A stretch of DNA of 40,702 bases. Origin: a virus. Its lineage: Duplodnaviria > Heunggongvirae > Uroviricota > Caudoviricetes. Each line of letters begins with the position of its first letter. The stretch's first letter is position 1. Location of the stretch: positions 1 to 40,702 of the IMG/VR virus record IMGVR_UViG_2923350032_000005; one strand, 5' to 3'. The notes under the pieces were generated by a model. It was not told where the DNA came from. It searched no databases and saw only the letters and a list, made by a program, of their open reading frames with translations. The position numbers and the translations under genes were made by a program. Shown in pieces: positions 29,729 through 34,395 of this stretch.

Positions 29729-30189
29729 TCTTCACCTGATGCAGCCCGCTTACTGCTTTTCCGTAAACACCGTTCACGACGCGCCAGAAAATTGTTTCGT
29801 TCTGGCTGGGAGTGGCTTTCACGGAATGCCGCCATCCACACCGTTGCAGCACGACGGTATAAGCCCCTGGACTCCAGTTCTTCCGCCTGGCGGGTCAGGC
29901 ACAAAATCACCCGCGGGTCGTTAGTGCCGACATAGAAATTGCGCACAGGTCTGGTTTCACGAACTGGTTGCCGTTCCGCCTCCGGCGATATCTTTGTCTG
30001 GCGCGGGAAATGTCTGCGTGTATCCCCTTCACAACGGTGAGCCACACGCCCACTCTGACGTAACTTGCTTGCTGACTGCAGAACGCGCTGCCGTGAGTAA
30101 CCAGCAAAAGCATCCGCAATGTCTCCGGAAGTACACCCCGGATGGGCTTCAATGAATTTCTGAACTTCATTCAAAAGACTCATAATCAC
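29695..30189 (-). CDS. PerC-like domain protein (putative transcriptional activator)
   Basis: 164 aa; C-terminal half AEELESRGLYRRAATVWMAAF resembles the PerC/Pch signature as I remember it; identification tentative. Confidence 0.45.
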   Translation of the reverse strand: MIMSLLNEVQKFIEAHPGCTSGDIADAFAGYSRQRVLQSASKLRQSGRVAHRCEGDTRRHFPRQTKISPEAERQPVRETRPVRNFYVGTNDPRVILCLTRQAEELESRGLYRRAATVWMAAFRESHSQPERNNFLARRERCLRKSSKRAASGEEWYLSGNYVGA

Positions 30190-31127
30190 CCCCTGAATCC
30201 TGCCGGGATCTGGCTGTAGTCCACGTTGTCGTAACTGGATTTGAAGTACGGGTCTTCGCGTTTTTCGGTGTACGTGCTGACGGACGGCGATAAGCGCAGG
30301 GAAAGCTCATCCCATTTTTCCCGCAGCTTCGACGGGCTGAGCACGTTACGGCACCAGAACGGATCGCGGCTGACGCGGCTGTACATCTCGCAGATTTGTT
30401 TGTGAGTACGACCATCCTGCACACACATCAGGCGAATTTCGTTTGCCCAGGCTGTCCAGTTCGGTTCTTTGGGACGAACCACCTCGCCGTCACATTCGGC
30501 AGCCTGCTCGTACAGGGCGATGATTTTTTTCCAGAGCCACTGTGCGCAGGTCAAATCATCCTGCGTCCCCCACTGGCGCTTTTTAGGGCTGAATACAACC
30601 GCATCAGGATGGCGAGTTAAAAAATCCTGTTCATCCGTCTGCGTGTCCGGTTGCGAAGCGTCCGGACGAGAAGTTTTTTTATCTGACGGATCATGTTTTG
30701 ATTTTACTGACGGATCCCCGCCAGATTCTGACGGGTGAAAACCCGCTTTTTTGCCAGATTTCGACGCATCAAATTTTGACGGGTCAGATTTTGATGCGTC
30801 AGATTTTGACGGGTCAGAATCTGACAGTTGAGAAAATGCCGCTGCCTGAAGCTTCGCAACGTTAAGCTGATAAACATTCGACGCATTGCGGTTACCCTGG
30901 CGACGCGCCTTACGCGTTAACCAGCCTTCTGCTTCCAGCCGTGCGATAGCCGTTCTGACGGTACTCATCCCCGCGCCAATCTGGCGGGCAATGGTTTCAA
31001 TTGATGGCCAGCACACACCTTCGTCATTACTGAAATCAGCCAGGCGGGCCATAATTGCCACGCTGGATAATTTCATGCCTGATGCAGCGCAACCATCCCA
31101 TACATAGCCGGTTAATTTAGTGCTCAT
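30186..31127 (-). CDS. Replication initiator, O-like, with internal origin iterons
   Basis: 313 aa; N-terminal HTH region (…SIETIARQIGAGMSTVRTAIARLEAEGWL…); the central low-complexity repeat SDASKSDPSKFDASKS is encoded by the iterons. Confidence 0.8.
   Translation of the reverse strand: MSTKLTGYVWDGCAASGMKLSSVAIMARLADFSNDEGVCWPSIETIARQIGAGMSTVRTAIARLEAEGWLTRKARRQGNRNASNVYQLNVAKLQAAAFSQLSDSDPSKSDASKSDPSKFDASKSGKKAGFHPSESGGDPSVKSKHDPSDKKTSRPDASQPDTQTDEQDFLTRHPDAVVFSPKKRQWGTQDDLTCAQWLWKKIIALYEQAAECDGEVVRPKEPNWTAWANEIRLMCVQDGRTHKQICEMYSRVSRDPFWCRNVLSPSKLREKWDELSLRLSPSVSTYTEKREDPYFKSSYDNVDYSQIPAGFRG
30681..30827. repeat. Origin iterons: about eight direct repeats of a ~15-bp unit inside the O-like gene
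   Basis: Units such as TCAGATTTTGACGGG / TCAGATTTTGATGCG / CCAGATTCTGACGGG seen directly; a T-run at 30674-30680 flanks them. Confidence 0.65.
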
Positions 31128-31136
31128 GACCGACCT

Positions 31137-31475
31137 CTATTTCCCTGAATTTACGACGAAACTGTTCGAGCGGGCTGAAGCACTCATGCTCATAGCCTTC
31201 GCGGAGGTAGATAACTCGTTGTGTTTCCGGCTCCCAACGAATGACTCTGACGGGCACTCCGTAGTGATCTTTGAACCAGCGGTTAACTTGTCGCAAAGGA
31301 CTGTCTCCTTCTGCCGGTTGAAATCACCCACAGCCCACTCAGCAAAGCTGTGGGTTACAATTTCCCTGTCACCAGGTACATTAACTGCATAGCAATACTC
31401 CACCTTCGCTTTTCCACCCGGTACAGGAAGCGCAATCAGTTGCGAGCGACGGTAGTGTGTTGTTAAACTGTTCAT
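31137..31475 (-). CDS. Hypothetical protein (uncertain) between CII-like and O-like genes
   Basis: 112-aa ORF filling a 344-bp gap; contains an 8-bp inverted repeat (CCCACAGC...GCTGTGGG); could instead be non-coding. Confidence 0.3.
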
Positions 31476-32023
31476 GCGTTAGTTTCTCCACAGTCACGAC
31501 ACGCCACGGCGCCCGGAGCTGCACACTCGCGGGCGTCATTACTTTCTGAAATGCAAAAGATTTTGTAGACCAGTGCTGCATGCTCCTGCAGCTTCGAAAT
31601 TGAGAGATACAGCTCGTCGTTAATTGCTGTCTGCTCGTGTGGCTCCACTACCCCATCTTCGATTGCCGAACGAATCTGCTTTGAGTAACTCCCGATCTGT
31701 TCGATGACTTCCAGCAGGCGCTGGTTTATATCGGCGTTCTCTACTTCCTCAATTTCAGGAAGCGATACGAACACCCCACCAGCAGACTGTGCGACAGCAT
31801 CCGCAATGTAGTGAGTGCCAGCTGCGCGCTGTAAAACCATTGCCCATCCCAGCGGGAAAATCTGATCGCCATCGGCACGAAGGCGGTTAAATAATGCGTT
31901 CTCTGTTACATCCAGCCAGTCAGCAGCTTCAGCGTAACCACCCGGCAACGCCGCGATAGTTTTTCTGACAGCTTTCACGTACCACTTAGGCTGTTTTTCT
32001 ACTTTCCAGTGATGCTTACCCAC
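31472..32023 (-). CDS. CII-like / YdaT-like regulatory protein
   Basis: ORF track gives 31472..32128; the likely start is the GTG at 32023 preceded by AAGGAG, or the ATG at 32056. Follows the Cro-like gene as in Rac (ydaS-ydaT). Confidence 0.55.
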
Positions 32024-32045
32024 GGCTATCTCCTTAAAACTGTGG

Positions 32046-32294
32046 TTACTTTTCATCTGATGAATCTTTAATCTTTTGAAAAATATCTGGACGTAATTTT
32101 TCTTTTGATATGCCAGTGGTCTTTTCAATGAATATCGAGAGCTTTGCAGGGGGACGCTTTTCTCTGTTCAACCAGTTCCAGACATGTTGTTGCTTTACTA
32201 AATGACCGCTGCTGGCTGTGAGCTTCCGAGCCAATTCTGATTGACCACCAGCCAGAGCGATTGCCTCCGATAAGGCTAATTGCTCAGGTGTCAT
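32046..32294 (-). CDS. Cro-like / YdaS-like HTH repressor (first gene of the rightward operon)
   Basis: 82 aa, LALSEAIALAGGQSELARKLTASSGHLVKQQHVWNWL is an HTH of the YdaS/Cro type; divergent from the cI-like gene across an operator region. Confidence 0.75.
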   Translation of the reverse strand: MTPEQLALSEAIALAGGQSELARKLTASSGHLVKQQHVWNWLNREKRPPAKLSIFIEKTTGISKEKLRPDIFQKIKDSSDEK

Positions 32295-32429
32295 AGCTTT
32301 CTCCTTTATAGGTAGTTAAGTTGTTACGAGTTGCAAGAATACAACATTAACAACTTTTATCACAACTTTTAGGTGTTGGAAAGCTAAAACATAAAGTTGT
32401 AACCTCATCAAAAAAGAGAGGGATATGTT
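32295..32429. promoter_or_regulatory. OR-like divergent promoter/operator region between the Cro-like and cI-like genes
   Basis: Repeated ACAAC / GTTGT half-sites (AGTTGTTACGAGTTGC, CACAACTTTTAGGTGTTG, ATAAAGTTGTAACC); similar motifs recur at 34020-34173. Confidence 0.5.
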
Positions 32430-33116
32430 GTGAAAACACTGGCAGAACGATTAAAGATAGGTAGAGAGAAAGCTGGCATGAGCCAAGCTCAACTAGCTGA
32501 AAAAATTGGACTTTCACAACAATCTGTAGCCAAAATAGAGAATGGCGAAACTCTACAACCGCGCAAAATTAAAGAAATTGCAAAAGTTTTAGGTGTATCA
32601 CAAAAGTGGTTACAACTTGGTATTGAAGACAACGCATCCATACCTGATCTTGTTGTAAAAGAAGCAGAAAGCACCGCATTAGACCCCGATATTTTCGTAA
32701 ACATTCCTGTTTTAGATGTCGAGTTATCGGCAGGTAACGGATGTCTGGCTGAAATAGTTGAATCAGCTATTGACTGGTTTCCATTAAGAAGAGCAGATTT
32801 GAGAAAATCTGGCGTATGTGCATCTAATGCCAAGATCGTAAAAATATGGGGGAACAGTTTATTACCGGTTCTCAATAATGGAGATCTTGTTGCCGTTGAT
32901 ATTTCTCAAACCGTTCCTATTCGTGATGGCGATCTTTATGCCGTACGAGATGGTGTATTGCTAAGGGTTAAAATACTTATCAACTTACCTGACGGTGGCT
33001 TGATTCTTAGAAGCTTCAACAAAGATGAGTACCCAGATGAAATACTCACCTTTGAAGATAGACGAGCCAGAATTCATGTTATAGGTAGGGTATTCTGGTC
33101 ATCGCGAACTTGGTAA
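32430..33116 (+). CDS. cI-like repressor (HTH plus S24 LexA-like peptidase domain)
   Basis: 228 aa; GTG start with RBS; N-terminal HTH (MSQAQLAEKIGLSQQSVAKIENGE) and C-terminal S24-like region. Confidence 0.85.
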   Translation: MKTLAERLKIGREKAGMSQAQLAEKIGLSQQSVAKIENGETLQPRKIKEIAKVLGVSQKWLQLGIEDNASIPDLVVKEAESTALDPDIFVNIPVLDVELSAGNGCLAEIVESAIDWFPLRRADLRKSGVCASNAKIVKIWGNSLLPVLNNGDLVAVDISQTVPIRDGDLYAVRDGVLLRVKILINLPDGGLILRSFNKDEYPDEILTFEDRRARIHVIGRVFWSSRTW

Positions 33117-33989
33117 TGCATCGAAAAGCATTTCTTCAGAAATAATTTTAAGTTTTGCACCATTATCATCCCTATAAGATATAGCCTTTTCGATCTTCCT
33201 TCCGTGACTTGAGAATTTCCAATCACGGGAGGAAAGCGTCCCAATTACTAAAAAATCCAACTTTTGAGTAATTCCACTACTGATGTTCCCACCAGCATTT
33301 TTAATCAAATTTTCAACTACGGCTCTCTTTCCTGCAACAAAAGTGCCTGTAAGACAATAGGTTTTACCCTCTAACTCTATCGAAGCCCCTACATCAATAG
33401 GCAGCCTGGTCGCCAAACCATCCACCACTCCACTTTCCAAGTCACATCCTGTGAAGTCTACTAATGCCTTATGTAGAGTTAAACTCTCATCTTCAGTAAT
33501 AACACCATCTTTAAGAATTTCCTTTACAAGTGCATAAAGTTTTTTTCCTGGGTAGTTGTTCTTCAAAGCTCCATTTTGCTCAAGCCACCAATTAAGATAT
33601 CTTATTTCTTCTTGAGTTAAGTTCCGATCAGCAATTAATCCTTTACATAGTCCATTAAGTAAATGGACATCTACATCCTTGGAGTAAAAATCAATTTCAG
33701 GGATATCAAGAATTTCCCTCTGTATTTGGAGAAGGCTATTTTTAAGGTCATCACGTTCTTCTGATGTGATTATTCCATCCGCAAGAATATCCGACACCCG
33801 TGCTGATAGACTTTTTATAACTCCATTATTGATAATCTGCTTTGCTTCAAGTAACCATGTATCTAAGTAAAGAACCTCCTCTTCACGGACAACTCCATCT
33901 GCAATAATTCCATCAATGATGCTAATCAAGTTAGCAAATAACTTGTCCCGGTTCTGTGTGTAATTAAAAGCGTAAAGCGCGTCTTCCAT
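33099..33989 (-). CDS. Protein with four TerB-like ~35-aa repeats and a C-terminal BRCT-like domain, in the cI-to-PL slot
   Basis: Start taken at the ATG at 33989 (MEDALYAF...). Repeats of the form DG(V/I)(V/I)xxEE..L..WL; C-terminus LEGKTYCLTGTFVAGKRAVVENLIKNAGGNISSGITQKLDFLVIG resembles BRCT. Convergent with cI, 18-bp 3' overlap. Domain calls are from memory. Confidence 0.55.
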   Translation of the reverse strand: MEDALYAFNYTQNRDKLFANLISIIDGIIADGVVREEEVLYLDTWLLEAKQIINNGVIKSLSARVSDILADGIITSEERDDLKNSLLQIQREILDIPEIDFYSKDVDVHLLNGLCKGLIADRNLTQEEIRYLNWWLEQNGALKNNYPGKKLYALVKEILKDGVITEDESLTLHKALVDFTGCDLESGVVDGLATRLPIDVGASIELEGKTYCLTGTFVAGKRAVVENLIKNAGGNISSGITQKLDFLVIGTLSSRDWKFSSHGRKIEKAISYRDDNGAKLKIISEEMLFDALPSSR

Positions 33990-34019
33990 ACAACCTCCTT
34001 TTTTTGATAATCCTTGCAC

Positions 34020-34173
34020 TCCTTGGCTACTCGTTCAAACCACATAAAGTTGTTGACAACATTCAAAACCACAACTAAATTACAACTTAAAGGTGTTAAA
34101 ACAACGAACAGGCAGGACGCCCACGAAGTAGCCGCCGGTGGCGTATGAATGACCGGATGATTCGTTAAATACT
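34020..34173. promoter_or_regulatory. OL/PL-like divergent promoter/operator region
   Basis: Contains AAGTTGTTGACAACATT (TTGACA -35-like hexamer inside an inverted GTTG...CAAC) and ACAACTTAAAGGTGTTA, close copies of motifs in 32295-32429. Confidence 0.45.
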
Positions 34174-34395
34174 ATGTGTAAGAGAGCGCAAATGAACCGT
34201 TATTTCACATGCTCGTTTTGTGGCGCAAACGAGCTGCAGGCAAAAAAAATCATCGCCAAAGGCGGAAAAGATGAAGTTGCTATCTGCTCTGAGTGCGTAG
34301 TCTTGTGTGTCGGGGCATTAATCAATATCAGCACAACTATTCAGTTCACACCAAATGAGAATGCGCCTTTAGATGCGCGGAAATCTGGAGGTTAA
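34174..34395 (+). CDS. Small protein with ClpX-type C4 zinc-finger-like motif (first PL-operon gene)
   Basis: 73 aa; FTCSFCGANELQAKKIIAKGGKDEVAICSECVVLC versus the ClpX N-terminal zinc-binding domain (…[31 protein letters not shown]…, from memory). Confidence 0.55.
   Translation: MCKRAQMNRYFTCSFCGANELQAKKIIAKGGKDEVAICSECVVLCVGALINISTTIQFTPNENAPLDARKSGG

What the first reader, a model, noticed from the sequence alone, without database searches (positions are those of the whole stretch)
33099..34019. TerB-like-repeat plus BRCT-domain protein occupying the cI-to-PL exclusion slot
The gene sits between the cI-like repressor and the OL/PL-like operator region, the position where lambda carries rexAB. 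It is transcribed from its own divergent promoter, convergent with cI, with an 18-bp 3' overlap. The protein combines four ~35-aa repeats that look like TerB-type motifs with a C-terminal BRCT-like domain. I do not recognise this architecture as a characterised phage or defence function, which makes it the strongest candidate in the window for a new lysogen-expressed accessory or exclusion system.
Basis: partly seen in the sequence, partly recalled or inferred. Interest (0 to 1): 0.75.

Follow-up and report, generated by a model that had tools for sequence, protein, structure and literature searches.

The report
Uncharacterised BRCT protein beside prophage repressor
A prophage gene wedged between the repressor gene and the leftward early promoter encodes a soluble protein with two small acidic helical bundles and a DNA-ligase-type BRCT domain; the family is large and untested, and because relatives sit in phage lysogeny operons and next to known anti-phage systems, it is a reasonable but unproven candidate for a new phage-exclusion protein.

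Summary
The gene is real, but the likely start is the ATG at 33989, giving 296 aa (33099-33989, minus strand), not 306. It lies between an HTH+S24 cI and an OL/PL-like region, convergent with cI, with an 18-bp 3' overlap.

No strong promoter was found. A conserved weak one lies back-to-back with PL in a PRM-like geometry; this is inference.

The family is large (1,596 clusters at E<=1e-10) and I found no paper that tests it. In all 92 enterobacterial loci it is convergent with cI. In P2-like phages such as K139 (orf2) it follows cI in the lysogenic operon. More distant homologues sit beside Lamassu, SIR2-HerA, DRT, PDC-S37 and PDC-S20.

Best reading (0.4): a lysogen-expressed, non-enzymatic protein that binds DNA ends or nicks and excludes other phages. 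Rivals: induction modulator, Gam-like end protector, host repair factor. Interest 0.6.

The parts
33099..33989 (-). Coding sequence of the 296-aa BRCT-domain protein (stop at 33099-33101, ATG at 33987-33989).
   Evidence: (RefSeq WP_000389078.1, 100% identical).
33696..33968 (-). Acidic four-helix bundle 1 (aa 8-98, pI 4.4). It consists of two helix-'DG'-helix hairpins carrying the conserved pairs D31/E38 and D71/E78.
   Evidence: AF2 models; conservation; repeat test; charge.
33432..33695 (-). Acidic four-helix bundle 2 (aa 99-186, pI 4.9), a duplicate of bundle 1, carrying D121/E128 and D161/E168. This bundle plus the BRCT domain forms the module found in the short ~200-aa forms and in fusions to other domains.
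   Evidence: (P 6.6e-22).
33117..33383 (-). Basic BRCT domain (aa 203-291, pI 9.2). It carries T214-G215, R222 and K265 at the positions of the BRCT phosphate pocket, plus the family-specific motif GTLxSRDWxFSSHGRKIE.
32430..33116 (+). cI-type repressor (HTH_3 + Peptidase_S24, 228 aa), convergent with the BRCT gene.
33099..33116 (.). The 18-bp overlap of the 3' ends of cI and the BRCT gene. No convincing terminator lies between them.
   Evidence: Overlapping 3' ends are seen in 77 of 80 viral contigs and 12 of 12 genome loci.
34010..34038 (-). Candidate weak promoter of the BRCT gene: -35 TTGAAC (34038-34033), 17-nt spacer, -10-like AAGGAT (34015-34010). Inferred, not demonstrated.
   Evidence: TTGAtt/17/AAGGAT conserved from E. 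coli to Providencia and Rosenbergiella. Not picked up by the consensus scan.
33994..33998 (-). Shine-Dalgarno sequence GGAGG of the BRCT gene.
34042..34057 (.). Invariant block GTCAACAACTTTATGT. It contains an operator-like ACAACTT repeat and most of the PL -35 hexamer (34053-34058, opposite strand). Its centre lies about 43-47 bp upstream of the inferred BRCT transcription start, an OR2/PRM-like position.
34053..34081 (+). PL-like promoter (TTGACA / 17 nt / TAAATT) driving the rightward early operon. It lies back-to-back with the candidate BRCT promoter, with the inferred start sites about 85 bp apart.

Best explanation
The gene encodes a soluble, non-enzymatic, single-polypeptide accessory protein of the prophage immunity cassette.

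Shown:
- The architecture is two duplicated acidic four-helix bundles followed by a basic BRCT domain of the LigA/RFC1/PARP1 type, with the phosphate-pocket residues conserved.
- The family sits in temperate-phage lysogeny modules and in defence islands.
- The bundle-plus-BRCT module is naturally fused to DNA-processing enzymes.

Inferred:
- It is made in the lysogen. In P2-like phages it is co-transcribed with cI. Here it would use a weak promoter placed back-to-back with PL, so that repressor bound at the shared operator could shut PL while permitting or activating it, as at lambda PRM.
- The BRCT domain binds 5'-phosphorylated DNA discontinuities, meaning ends, nicks or gaps. Such discontinuities occur on injected or replicating foreign phage DNA.
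- The helical bundles would oligomerise, gate the BRCT domain, or recruit a host factor.
- The outcome would be a block on circularisation, ligation or replication of the incoming DNA, or delivery of a host nuclease to it. Either way the lysogen excludes other phages.
For: - The slot between cI and OL/PL is confirmed.
- K139 orf2 is 32.6% identical over 95% of the protein. It lies 26 nt after cI and before glo (an exclusion gene) and int, in an operon whose lysogenic promoter and start site are annotated. The same cI-BRCT-X-int order occurs in Aeromonas, Aliivibrio and other P2-like prophages.
- Distant homologues (32-39% identity) lie directly beside known or candidate defence genes:
  - LmuA/LmuC/LmuB (9e-120, 1e-50, 2.5e-165)
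  - SIR2 + HerA (2e-68, 3e-135)
  - RT_UG9 + RTasPolA + DEDDh (1e-238, 2.5e-173)
  - PDC-S37 (4e-148) and PDC-S20 (2.5e-73)
  - a GajB-like helicase, a type II methyltransferase, an Mrr nuclease, RhuM, resolvases and integrases.
- The bundle-2 + BRCT module is the C-terminal part of the PADLOC candidate PDC-S48 (DEDDh exonuclease fusion). It is also fused to HhH2-BRCT and to a 2042-aa SF1 helicase / MTES_1575 nuclease.
- From the literature: the BRCT phosphate pocket is S/T-G plus T/S-x-K (PMC10386641), and the isolated RFC1 BRCT binds recessed 5'-P DNA with Kd about 10 nM (PMC9293004).
- Intact in 47 of 47 E. coli genomes that carry it. The family has 1,596 clusters at E<=1e-10.
- The upstream promoter-like elements and their PRM-like spacing are conserved.
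Against: - No phenotype, expression or binding data exist.
- The protein has no enzymatic or membrane-effector domain and no TM segment. No partner is conserved. How binding would kill a phage or abort an infection is therefore unspecified.
- No sigma-70 promoter on the minus strand passes a simple consensus scan. If the promoter overlaps OL it could equally be repressed in the lysogen.
- Some homologues sit among housekeeping genes with no mobile or defence context (V. harveyi; L037/L044 and L034).
- Defence-island adjacency was counted on a small, hand-picked set without a genome-wide background.
- The tight co-inheritance with cI (r = 0.94) is expected for any gene lying inside the OL..OR immunity cassette, so it says nothing about function.
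- The NMR-based model of RFC1 BRCT bound to 5'-P DNA is disputed by cryo-EM of whole RFC.
Confidence: 0.4

Rival explanations
1. Lysis-lysogeny or induction modulator. The BRCT protein senses DNA damage (nicks, gaps) and tunes repressor stability, SOS induction or establishment of lysogeny. On this reading it is part of the switch, not a weapon against other phages.
For: - It is always next to the repressor: 92 of 92 enterobacterial loci are convergent with cI, and in P2-like phages it comes directly after cI and before int.
- In E. coli the cI allele and the gene occur almost one-to-one, in 48 and 47 genomes.
- Convergent overlapping transcription with cI offers a built-in regulatory interaction.
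- BRCT domains are classic DNA-damage modules. A 2026 preprint treats 'cI- or BRCT-based' cassettes as DNA-damage-responsive regulators, by inference only.
Against: - Many homologues have no repressor nearby: defence islands and housekeeping loci.
- One P2-like Aeromonas version follows an HTH-only repressor with no S24 domain.
- The K139 cI is not detectably similar to this window's cI, yet the BRCT proteins are 33% identical.
- Co-inheritance is explained by the gene's position inside the immunity cassette.
Confidence: 0.2
2. Phage-benefit protector of DNA ends or nicks, or a counter-defence factor (Gam-like), made early in lytic growth. Its promoter shares the OL operators and is repressed by cI in the lysogen. 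The protein would cap phage DNA ends or nicks against RecBCD and against end-sensing defences such as Lamassu or Gabija.
For: - The candidate promoter abuts the operator block that overlaps the PL -35, so repression is as plausible as activation.
- The BRCT domain is basic and of the DNA-end-binding class.
- There is no effector domain, which fits a shielding protein.
- The acidic bundles could be decoys.
- Homologues lie next to Lamassu and a Gabija-like helicase, which sense DNA ends. This is adjacency only.
Against: - In P2-like phages the gene is in the lysogenic operon with cI and int, not among early lytic genes.
- Chromosomal homologues lie co-oriented directly downstream of complete defence operons and in non-mobile loci. 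That would be odd for an anti-defence gene.
- Fusions to exonuclease and helicase-nuclease domains point to targeting DNA, not shielding it.
Confidence: 0.15
3. Host-type DNA repair or damage-tolerance adaptor carried as lysogenic conversion. The protein would recruit LigA, a clamp or an exonuclease to nicks and gaps and so improve host survival, with no role in phage-phage conflict.
For: - Standalone homologues occur in housekeeping neighbourhoods, and one lies next to fpg.
- Related modules are fused to LigA-like HhH-BRCT and to DnaQ-like exonucleases.
- The NCBIfam 'DNA polymerase III epsilon' PRK06195 shares the BRCT region.
Against: - The gene is rare and patchy: 47 of 5,426 complete E. 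coli genomes, always on a prophage.
- Its neighbourhoods include many mobile and defence genes.
- There is no catalytic domain.
Confidence: 0.1

Closest known systems
Vibrio phage K139 Orf2 (NP_536630.1) and its P2-like prophage relatives
   Same: Homologous over 95% of the length at 32.6% identity, with the same two bundles plus BRCT. It also lies next to the immunity repressor, inside the lysogeny module.
   Different: K139 orf2 is co-directional with cI and is followed by glo and int in one operon. Here the gene is convergent with cI and must have its own promoter. Orf2 has no assigned function; I found no experimental data in the papers available.
PADLOC candidate defence gene PDC-S48 (DEDDh exonuclease, helical repeats, BRCT)
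   Same: It shares the bundle-2 + BRCT module: E 2.4e-7, aa 119-251 against profile positions 239-377 of 411. Full-length members (P0306, P0336) also hit this family in phmmer.
   Different: The window protein lacks the N-terminal DEDDh exonuclease entirely and has a second helical bundle in its place. PDC-S48 is itself only a computational candidate; no paper was found.
Lambda RexAB, and other morons in the cI-to-PL slot such as HK022 Nun, Salmonella BTP1 BstA and 933W Stk (from my own knowledge of lambdoid phages)
   Same: Same genomic slot between cI and OL/PL inside the immunity cassette. The expected logic of expression in the lysogen is also the same.
   Different: There is no sequence relationship; the PADLOC scan returned only PDC-S48. 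It is a single soluble protein with no membrane partner. It is transcribed convergently to cI, not from PRM.
BRCT domains of NAD+-dependent DNA ligase LigA, of RFC1 (p140) and of PARP1
   Different: Only the roughly 90-aa BRCT domain is shared. None of the ligase or clamp-loader catalytic domains is present. NCBIfam LigA models score 20-30 bits against cutoffs of 369-1051. The family carries an extra invariant SRDWxFSSHG insert before helix alpha-2. The 'NAD-dependent DNA ligase' labels in databases are misannotations.
TerB / DjlA-N family (Pfam PF05099)
   Same: Helical hairpins with a D-G-x-(I/V)-x3-E motif and acidic character. Weak TerB hits occur in 13 of 60 relatives, best E 6.5e-4.

Membership tests
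BRCT superfamily (Pfam PF00533) | Score above the Pfam gathering threshold. | tested here: met
   29 bits against a cutoff of 21.3, E 1.3e-6, aa 206-290. 59 of 60 relatives match.
BRCT superfamily (Pfam PF00533) | Four-stranded parallel sheet flanked by three helices (b1-a1-b2-b3-a2-b4-a3). | tested here: met
BRCT superfamily (Pfam PF00533) | Phosphate pocket: S/T-G in the b1-a1 loop and a Lys at the N-terminus of a2 (definition from PMC10386641). | tested here: met
   T214 is nearly invariant; G215, R222 and K265 are invariant. TG and R align with RFC1. Actual ligand binding cannot be tested with these tools.
TerB (Pfam PF05099) | Score above the Pfam gathering threshold, or a significant profile match. 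| tested here: not met
   No hit at E<=1. 13 of 60 relatives hit sub-threshold, best 6.5e-4. hhalign of the N-domain profile against E. coli O157 TerB gives E 0.33 over 2 columns. A family-to-family profile comparison could not be run.
TerB (Pfam PF05099) | TerB fold as the closest structural neighbour. | tested here: inconclusive
PADLOC PDC-S48 | N-terminal DEDDh (RNase T / DnaQ-like) exonuclease domain. | tested here: not met
   The match covers only profile positions 239-377 of 411. True members hit positions 1-380 and also the DEDDh model. Pfam finds no RNase_T in the window protein.
NAD+-dependent DNA ligase LigA (the label some databases give this family) | Adenylation, OB, Zn-finger and HhH domains; NCBIfam equivalog score. 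| tested here: not met
   Only aa 203-255 align. Scores are 20-28.5 bits against cutoffs of 369-1051.
Lambda RexAB-type exclusion | Location between cI and OL/PL inside the immunity region. | tested here: met
Lambda RexAB-type exclusion | Co-transcription with cI, and a two-protein sensor plus membrane-channel design. | tested here: not met
   The gene is convergent with cI. The protein has no TM segment and no adjacent membrane partner in the window. K+ channel genes flank homologues in only 3 of 27 distant loci.
Anti-phage defence gene (operational definition: enriched next to known defence systems, and protects when expressed) | Neighbourhood enriched in known defence genes. | tested here: inconclusive
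   At least 8 of about 14 inspected non-enterobacterial loci have strong PADLOC hits within 1-3 genes. No genome-wide background was computed.
Anti-phage defence gene (operational definition: enriched next to known defence systems, and protects when expressed) | Protection against phage on expression. | not testable with these tools
   This requires plating and infection experiments.

The most novel reading that the evidence does not exclude
This would be the first member of a BRCT-based class of bacterial and prophage immunity. In that class a catalytically inert protein recognises 5'-phosphorylated ends or nicks of invading DNA through a ligase-type BRCT pocket. It acts alone or by borrowing host enzymes; in other lineages the same module is hard-wired to exonucleases and helicase-nucleases. 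In lambdoid prophages it would be driven by a second, PRM-like repressor-activated promoter at OL. Repressor occupancy would then switch off PL and switch on the exclusion gene.
Probability: 0.25. Interest if true: 0.8.

Novelty: new variant of a known kind. Interest (0 to 1): 0.6.

Why it matters
Prophage immunity regions are a proven source of exclusion and defence genes, rexAB, nun and bstA among them. This slot holds a widespread, intact and entirely untested protein family: about 1,600 clusters at 50% identity with E<=1e-10.

BRCT domains are the signature of eukaryotic DNA-damage signalling. A bacterial or phage immunity function built on one, with no enzyme attached, would add a new sensing principle. 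It would also give a function to K139 orf2, PHROG 3989, part of PADLOC PDC-S48 and thousands of proteins mislabelled 'NAD-dependent DNA ligase'.

The possible PRM-like promoter at OL would be a new piece of lambdoid switch architecture.

If the protein instead tunes induction, it still bears on how prophages read DNA damage. All of this can be tested directly with one plasmid, one deletion and a phage panel.

Tried and rejected
- **DNA ligase or Pol III epsilon identity.** Only the BRCT domain aligns, far below the cutoffs.
- **Membership of PDC-S48.** The exonuclease domain is missing.
- **A conserved partner gene.**
  - All-against-all clustering of neighbours in 27 distant loci found none.
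  - A DEDDh exonuclease is adjacent in only one locus.
  - K+ channels are adjacent in 3 loci.
  - The gene after the homologue in P2-like phages varies: Glo, a 232-aa coiled-coil protein, or a K+ channel.
- **Dependence on an S24 repressor.** Rejected: one homologue follows an HTH-only repressor and many have no repressor nearby.
- **Structured RNA or terminator.** None is evident in the PL leader or at the cI/BRCT junction. Rfam returned nothing and fold z-scores are about 0.
- **Relationship to the prophage's own CII/YmfL protein.** Suggested by weak NCBIfam and PHROG hits, but BLASTP is null.
- **Characterised viral structural homologue.** BFVD gives only ligase BRCT domains.
- **AFDB50 fold search.** Unavailable.
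- **Nesper 1999 and Kobayashi 2010.** Neither paper could be opened.
- **Literature.** Ten searches found no functional study.
Full report
**1. What is in the sequence**

The ORF listing gives a 306-aa ORF on the minus strand at 33099..34019, starting from a GTG. The sequence shows an ATG at 33989 with GGAGG (33998-33994) upstream of it. RefSeq annotates that 296-aa product (WP_000389078.1, 'BRCT domain-containing protein') in a 100%-identical E. coli prophage. Homologues from other genera begin at the same position. I therefore take 33099-33989 as the gene.

The neighbour on the left, 32430..33116 (+), is a cI-type repressor with HTH_3 (1.4e-15) and Peptidase_S24 (6e-15). Beyond it, on the minus strand, lie a Cro/YdaS-like gene, a CP76-type cII and a replication gene.

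On the right there is a strong sigma-70 promoter on the + strand (TTGACA 34053, 17 nt, TAAATT 34081). It drives a rightward operon that starts with a ClpX-zinc-finger-only protein and runs to the integrase and tRNA-Thr. Heptamers ACAACTT/AAGTTGT cluster in both control regions: 6 of the 10 copies in the window.

The layout is cro < OR > cI >< BRCT gene < OL/PL > early-left genes. The gene does occupy the rexAB slot. It is convergent with cI, and the two coding sequences overlap by 18 bp (33099-33116).

**2. The protein**

*BRCT domain.*
- Pfam BRCT scores 29 bits against a gathering cutoff of 21.3 (E 1.3e-6, aa 206-290). It is found in 59 of 60 aligned relatives.
- An AlphaFold2 model built on a 60-sequence alignment (31-89% identity) has mean pLDDT 85.

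*N-terminal region.*
- This part (aa 8-186) is a tandem duplication. The profile of the first half aligns to that of the second with hhalign P = 6.6e-22 (35% identity, 77 columns).
- Each half consists of two related helix-loop-helix hairpins.
- A separate model of this region (pLDDT 86.5, pTM 0.84) shows two four-helix bundles.
- Each hairpin carries a conserved Asp in the loop and a Glu seven residues later: D31/E38, D71/E78, D121/E128 and D161/E168.
- The bundles are acidic (pI 4.4 and 4.9) and the BRCT domain is basic (pI 9.2). There is no transmembrane segment.

*TerB.* 'TerB-type' is not established.
- There is no TerB hit at E<=1 for this protein.
- Hits in 13 of 60 relatives are sub-threshold, best 6.5e-4. 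SHOCT_2, GA_3 and EF-hand_5 hit about as often.
- A profile search of PDB sequences finds nothing.
- hhalign against E. coli O157 TerB is null.

The resemblance is a shared D-G-x3-E hairpin motif.

**3. The BRCT pocket**

The most conserved part of the family is CxTGxF...R (nearly invariant T214; invariant G215 and R222) together with GTLxSRDWxFSSHGRKIE (invariant S254, D256, W257, G263, K265). HMMER aligns the TG and R with those of human RFC1 BRCT.

According to a BRCT review, the phosphate pocket is an S/T-G in the b1-a1 loop plus a Lys at the start of a2 (PMC10386641). The isolated RFC1 BRCT domain binds recessed 5'-phosphate DNA with a Kd near 10 nM, although cryo-EM of whole RFC shows a different mode (PMC9293004).

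My assignment of specific RFC1 residues (T415, G416, R423, K458) is from memory; the primary paper could not be opened. That this protein binds 5'-P DNA is inference.

**4. The family and where it lives**

*Size and architectures.* An exhaustive phmmer search of 1.84 billion cluster representatives finds 2,857 clusters at E<=1e-3, 1,596 at 1e-10 and 137 at 1e-30. There are two main architectures:
- about 300 aa, with both bundles plus BRCT;
- about 200 aa, with bundle 2 plus BRCT. This is the form in Pseudomonas phages, where it lies near the integrase.

*Fusions.* The bundle-2 + BRCT module is fused to several DNA-processing domains:
- DEDDh exonucleases. This combination is what PADLOC calls candidate PDC-S48.
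- LigA-like HhH2 plus a second BRCT domain.
- A 2042-aa SF1 helicase / MTES_1575 nuclease / DUF3320 protein.

The window protein has none of these catalytic parts.

*Enterobacterial prophages.*
- In all 12 genome loci and all 80 IMG/VR contigs the gene is convergent with the S24 cI. In the 80 IMG/VR contigs the 3' ends overlap in 77. These span Escherichia, Citrobacter, Serratia, Providencia, Proteus, Rosenbergiella and others.
- The divergence of the gene tracks that of cI (r = 0.94 with the HTH part).
- In complete E. coli genomes the gene is in 47 of 5,426, always full length at 98.5% identity or more. The cI allele is in 48.
- This co-inheritance is expected for anything lying between cI and OL, because OL, cI and OR must travel together. 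It does not prove functional coupling.

*P2-like prophages.*
- In K139, Aeromonas, Aliivibrio and others the gene follows cI on the same strand and precedes the integrase.
- In K139 the record annotates the lysogenic promoter and its start site upstream of cI, with orf2, glo (phage exclusion) and int close-packed behind it.
- One Aeromonas version follows an HTH-only repressor.

*Elsewhere.* The gene stands alone, with no conserved neighbour. The neighbourhoods are nonetheless telling:
- L026: LmuA-LmuC-LmuB, then the gene.
- L027: SIR2-HerA, then the gene.
- L055: RT_UG9 + RTasPolA + DEDDh, then the gene, beside a 1977-aa DUF4011 helicase.
- L033: PDC-S37.
- L052: PDC-S20 KAP NTPase with a resolvase and an integrase.
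- L028: a GajB-like helicase.
- L030: an LmuB-like SbcC protein.
- L040: a type II methyltransferase.
- L042: an Mrr nuclease and an integrase fragment.
- L026 and L027: RhuM.

A minority lie among housekeeping genes (V. harveyi; L037/L044 and L034).

**5. Expression**

Nothing on the minus strand upstream could supply read-through, because all annotated genes there are on the + strand. The gene therefore needs a promoter within 33990-34175. The consensus scan finds none.

An alignment of the upstream regions from twelve loci shows three things:
- two invariant blocks that are the OL operators and PL hexamers on the other strand;
- then a conserved TTGAtt (here TTGAAC, 34038-34033), 17 nt, AAGGAT (34015-34010);
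- then an A-run and the Shine-Dalgarno sequence.

If this is the promoter, its start lies about 85 bp from the PL start, back-to-back. The operator block GTCAACAACTTTATGT is centred about 43-47 bp upstream and overlaps the PL -35. From my knowledge of lambda, this resembles the PR/PRM pair: starts 82 bp apart, with OR2 at about -42 activating PRM. It suggests a repressor-activated promoter, which would agree with lysogenic co-transcription in the P2-like phages.

This is inference. The same geometry could give repression instead. No terminator or structured RNA separates the convergent genes, so antisense or collision effects between the cI and BRCT transcripts are possible.

**6. Interpretation**

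The best-supported reading is a lysogen-expressed accessory protein that recognises DNA discontinuities through its BRCT pocket and so interferes with other phages. It might act alone or by engaging host enzymes. I put this at 0.4.

For it:
- the gene's slot in the immunity region;
- the K139 operon;
- the defence-island company its homologues keep;
- the reuse of the module on nucleases.

Against it:
- the protein has no effector;
- its expression is unproven;
- some contexts are housekeeping;
- my neighbourhood count has no background.

Rivals:
- DNA-damage-responsive modulator of the switch (0.2);
- Gam-like end protector or counter-defence protein made early (0.15);
- host-type repair adaptor (0.1).

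The remainder covers no function, or something not considered here.

**7. Comparison and novelty**

The protein is a true BRCT-superfamily member. It is not a ligase, it is not a PDC-S48 member, and it is not demonstrably TerB. It resembles RexAB only in address.

I found no experimental work on the family in ten literature searches. A 2026 preprint only remarks that some Roseobacter prophages carry 'cI- or BRCT-based' regulatory cassettes.

I rate it a new variant of a known kind, namely an accessory gene of a prophage immunity region, with interest 0.6. The candidate is concrete, widespread and cheap to test, but every functional statement is still inference.

Noticed in passing
window 34099-34167: A roughly 65-nt element just downstream of the PL-like promoter. 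It is 85-98% identical in 33 phage records (SfV, SfII, SfIV, ST64B, mEp460, YeP1-3, Kati and others) and matches about 1,400 E. coli genomes, yet it is unannotated. There is no Rfam match, and its RNA folds no better than shuffled sequence (z = -0.09). On the minus strand it contains a terminator-like hairpin (34124-34108). It may be a leader or antitermination site, or an insulator.
   Followed up: partly
window 34174-34395 (+): The first gene of the PL operon encodes a 73-aa protein that is essentially only a ClpX C4-type zinc finger (Pfam 1.4e-10). It could be a ClpX mimic or adaptor decoy.
   Followed up: no
window 32318-32400 and 34047-34088: Operator-like heptamers ACAACTT/AAGTTGT. Six of the ten copies in the 40.7-kb window fall in these two control regions. 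The 12-mer ACATAAAGTTGT occurs in both. The exact operator boundaries were not resolved.
   Followed up: partly
window 30755-30818: A 15-bp unit (CAGATTTTGACGGGT) repeated 4.3 times in tandem, inside the replication-initiator-like gene 30186-31127 (-). This looks like an iteron-type origin, as in lambda O.
   Followed up: partly
window 31472-32128 (-): The cII-like gene of this lambdoid prophage is of the 186/CP76 type (Pfam 1.9e-14). The same cI / Cro(YdaS) / CP76 set is seen in P2-like Aeromonas prophages that also carry the BRCT gene. The whole immunity cassette may therefore have moved between phage lineages.
   Followed up: partly
L041 4852-5604; L028 4877-5584; L033 3281-3931: Small Kv-like K+ channel genes (Ion_trans, TVGYGD filter, Arg-rich S4) lie directly next to BRCT homologues in three unrelated loci. 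One sits inside a P2-like lysogeny operon (cI-BRCT-channel-int), which recalls the RexB ion channel.
   Followed up: partly
L055 1-5882: A gene cluster consisting of a DUF4011 SF1 helicase / MTES_1575 / DUF3320 protein (1977 aa), RT_UG9_small, an RT-associated PolA, a DEDDh exonuclease and the BRCT protein; the last two overlap by 7 nt. It may be an extended DRT-type system in which the exonuclease and the BRCT protein form a split PDC-S48.
   Followed up: partly
L009 1675-2588: In one P2-like prophage the gene is split. A 101-aa ORF encodes bundle 1, and a 203-aa ORF that overlaps its end encodes bundle 2 plus BRCT. This is either a frameshift or a natural two-piece version.
   Followed up: no
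public annotations of the family: Many members are labelled 'NAD-dependent DNA ligase' or 'DNA polymerase' in GenBank, JGI and phage records, although only the BRCT domain is shared. This is a systematic misannotation.
   Followed up: yes
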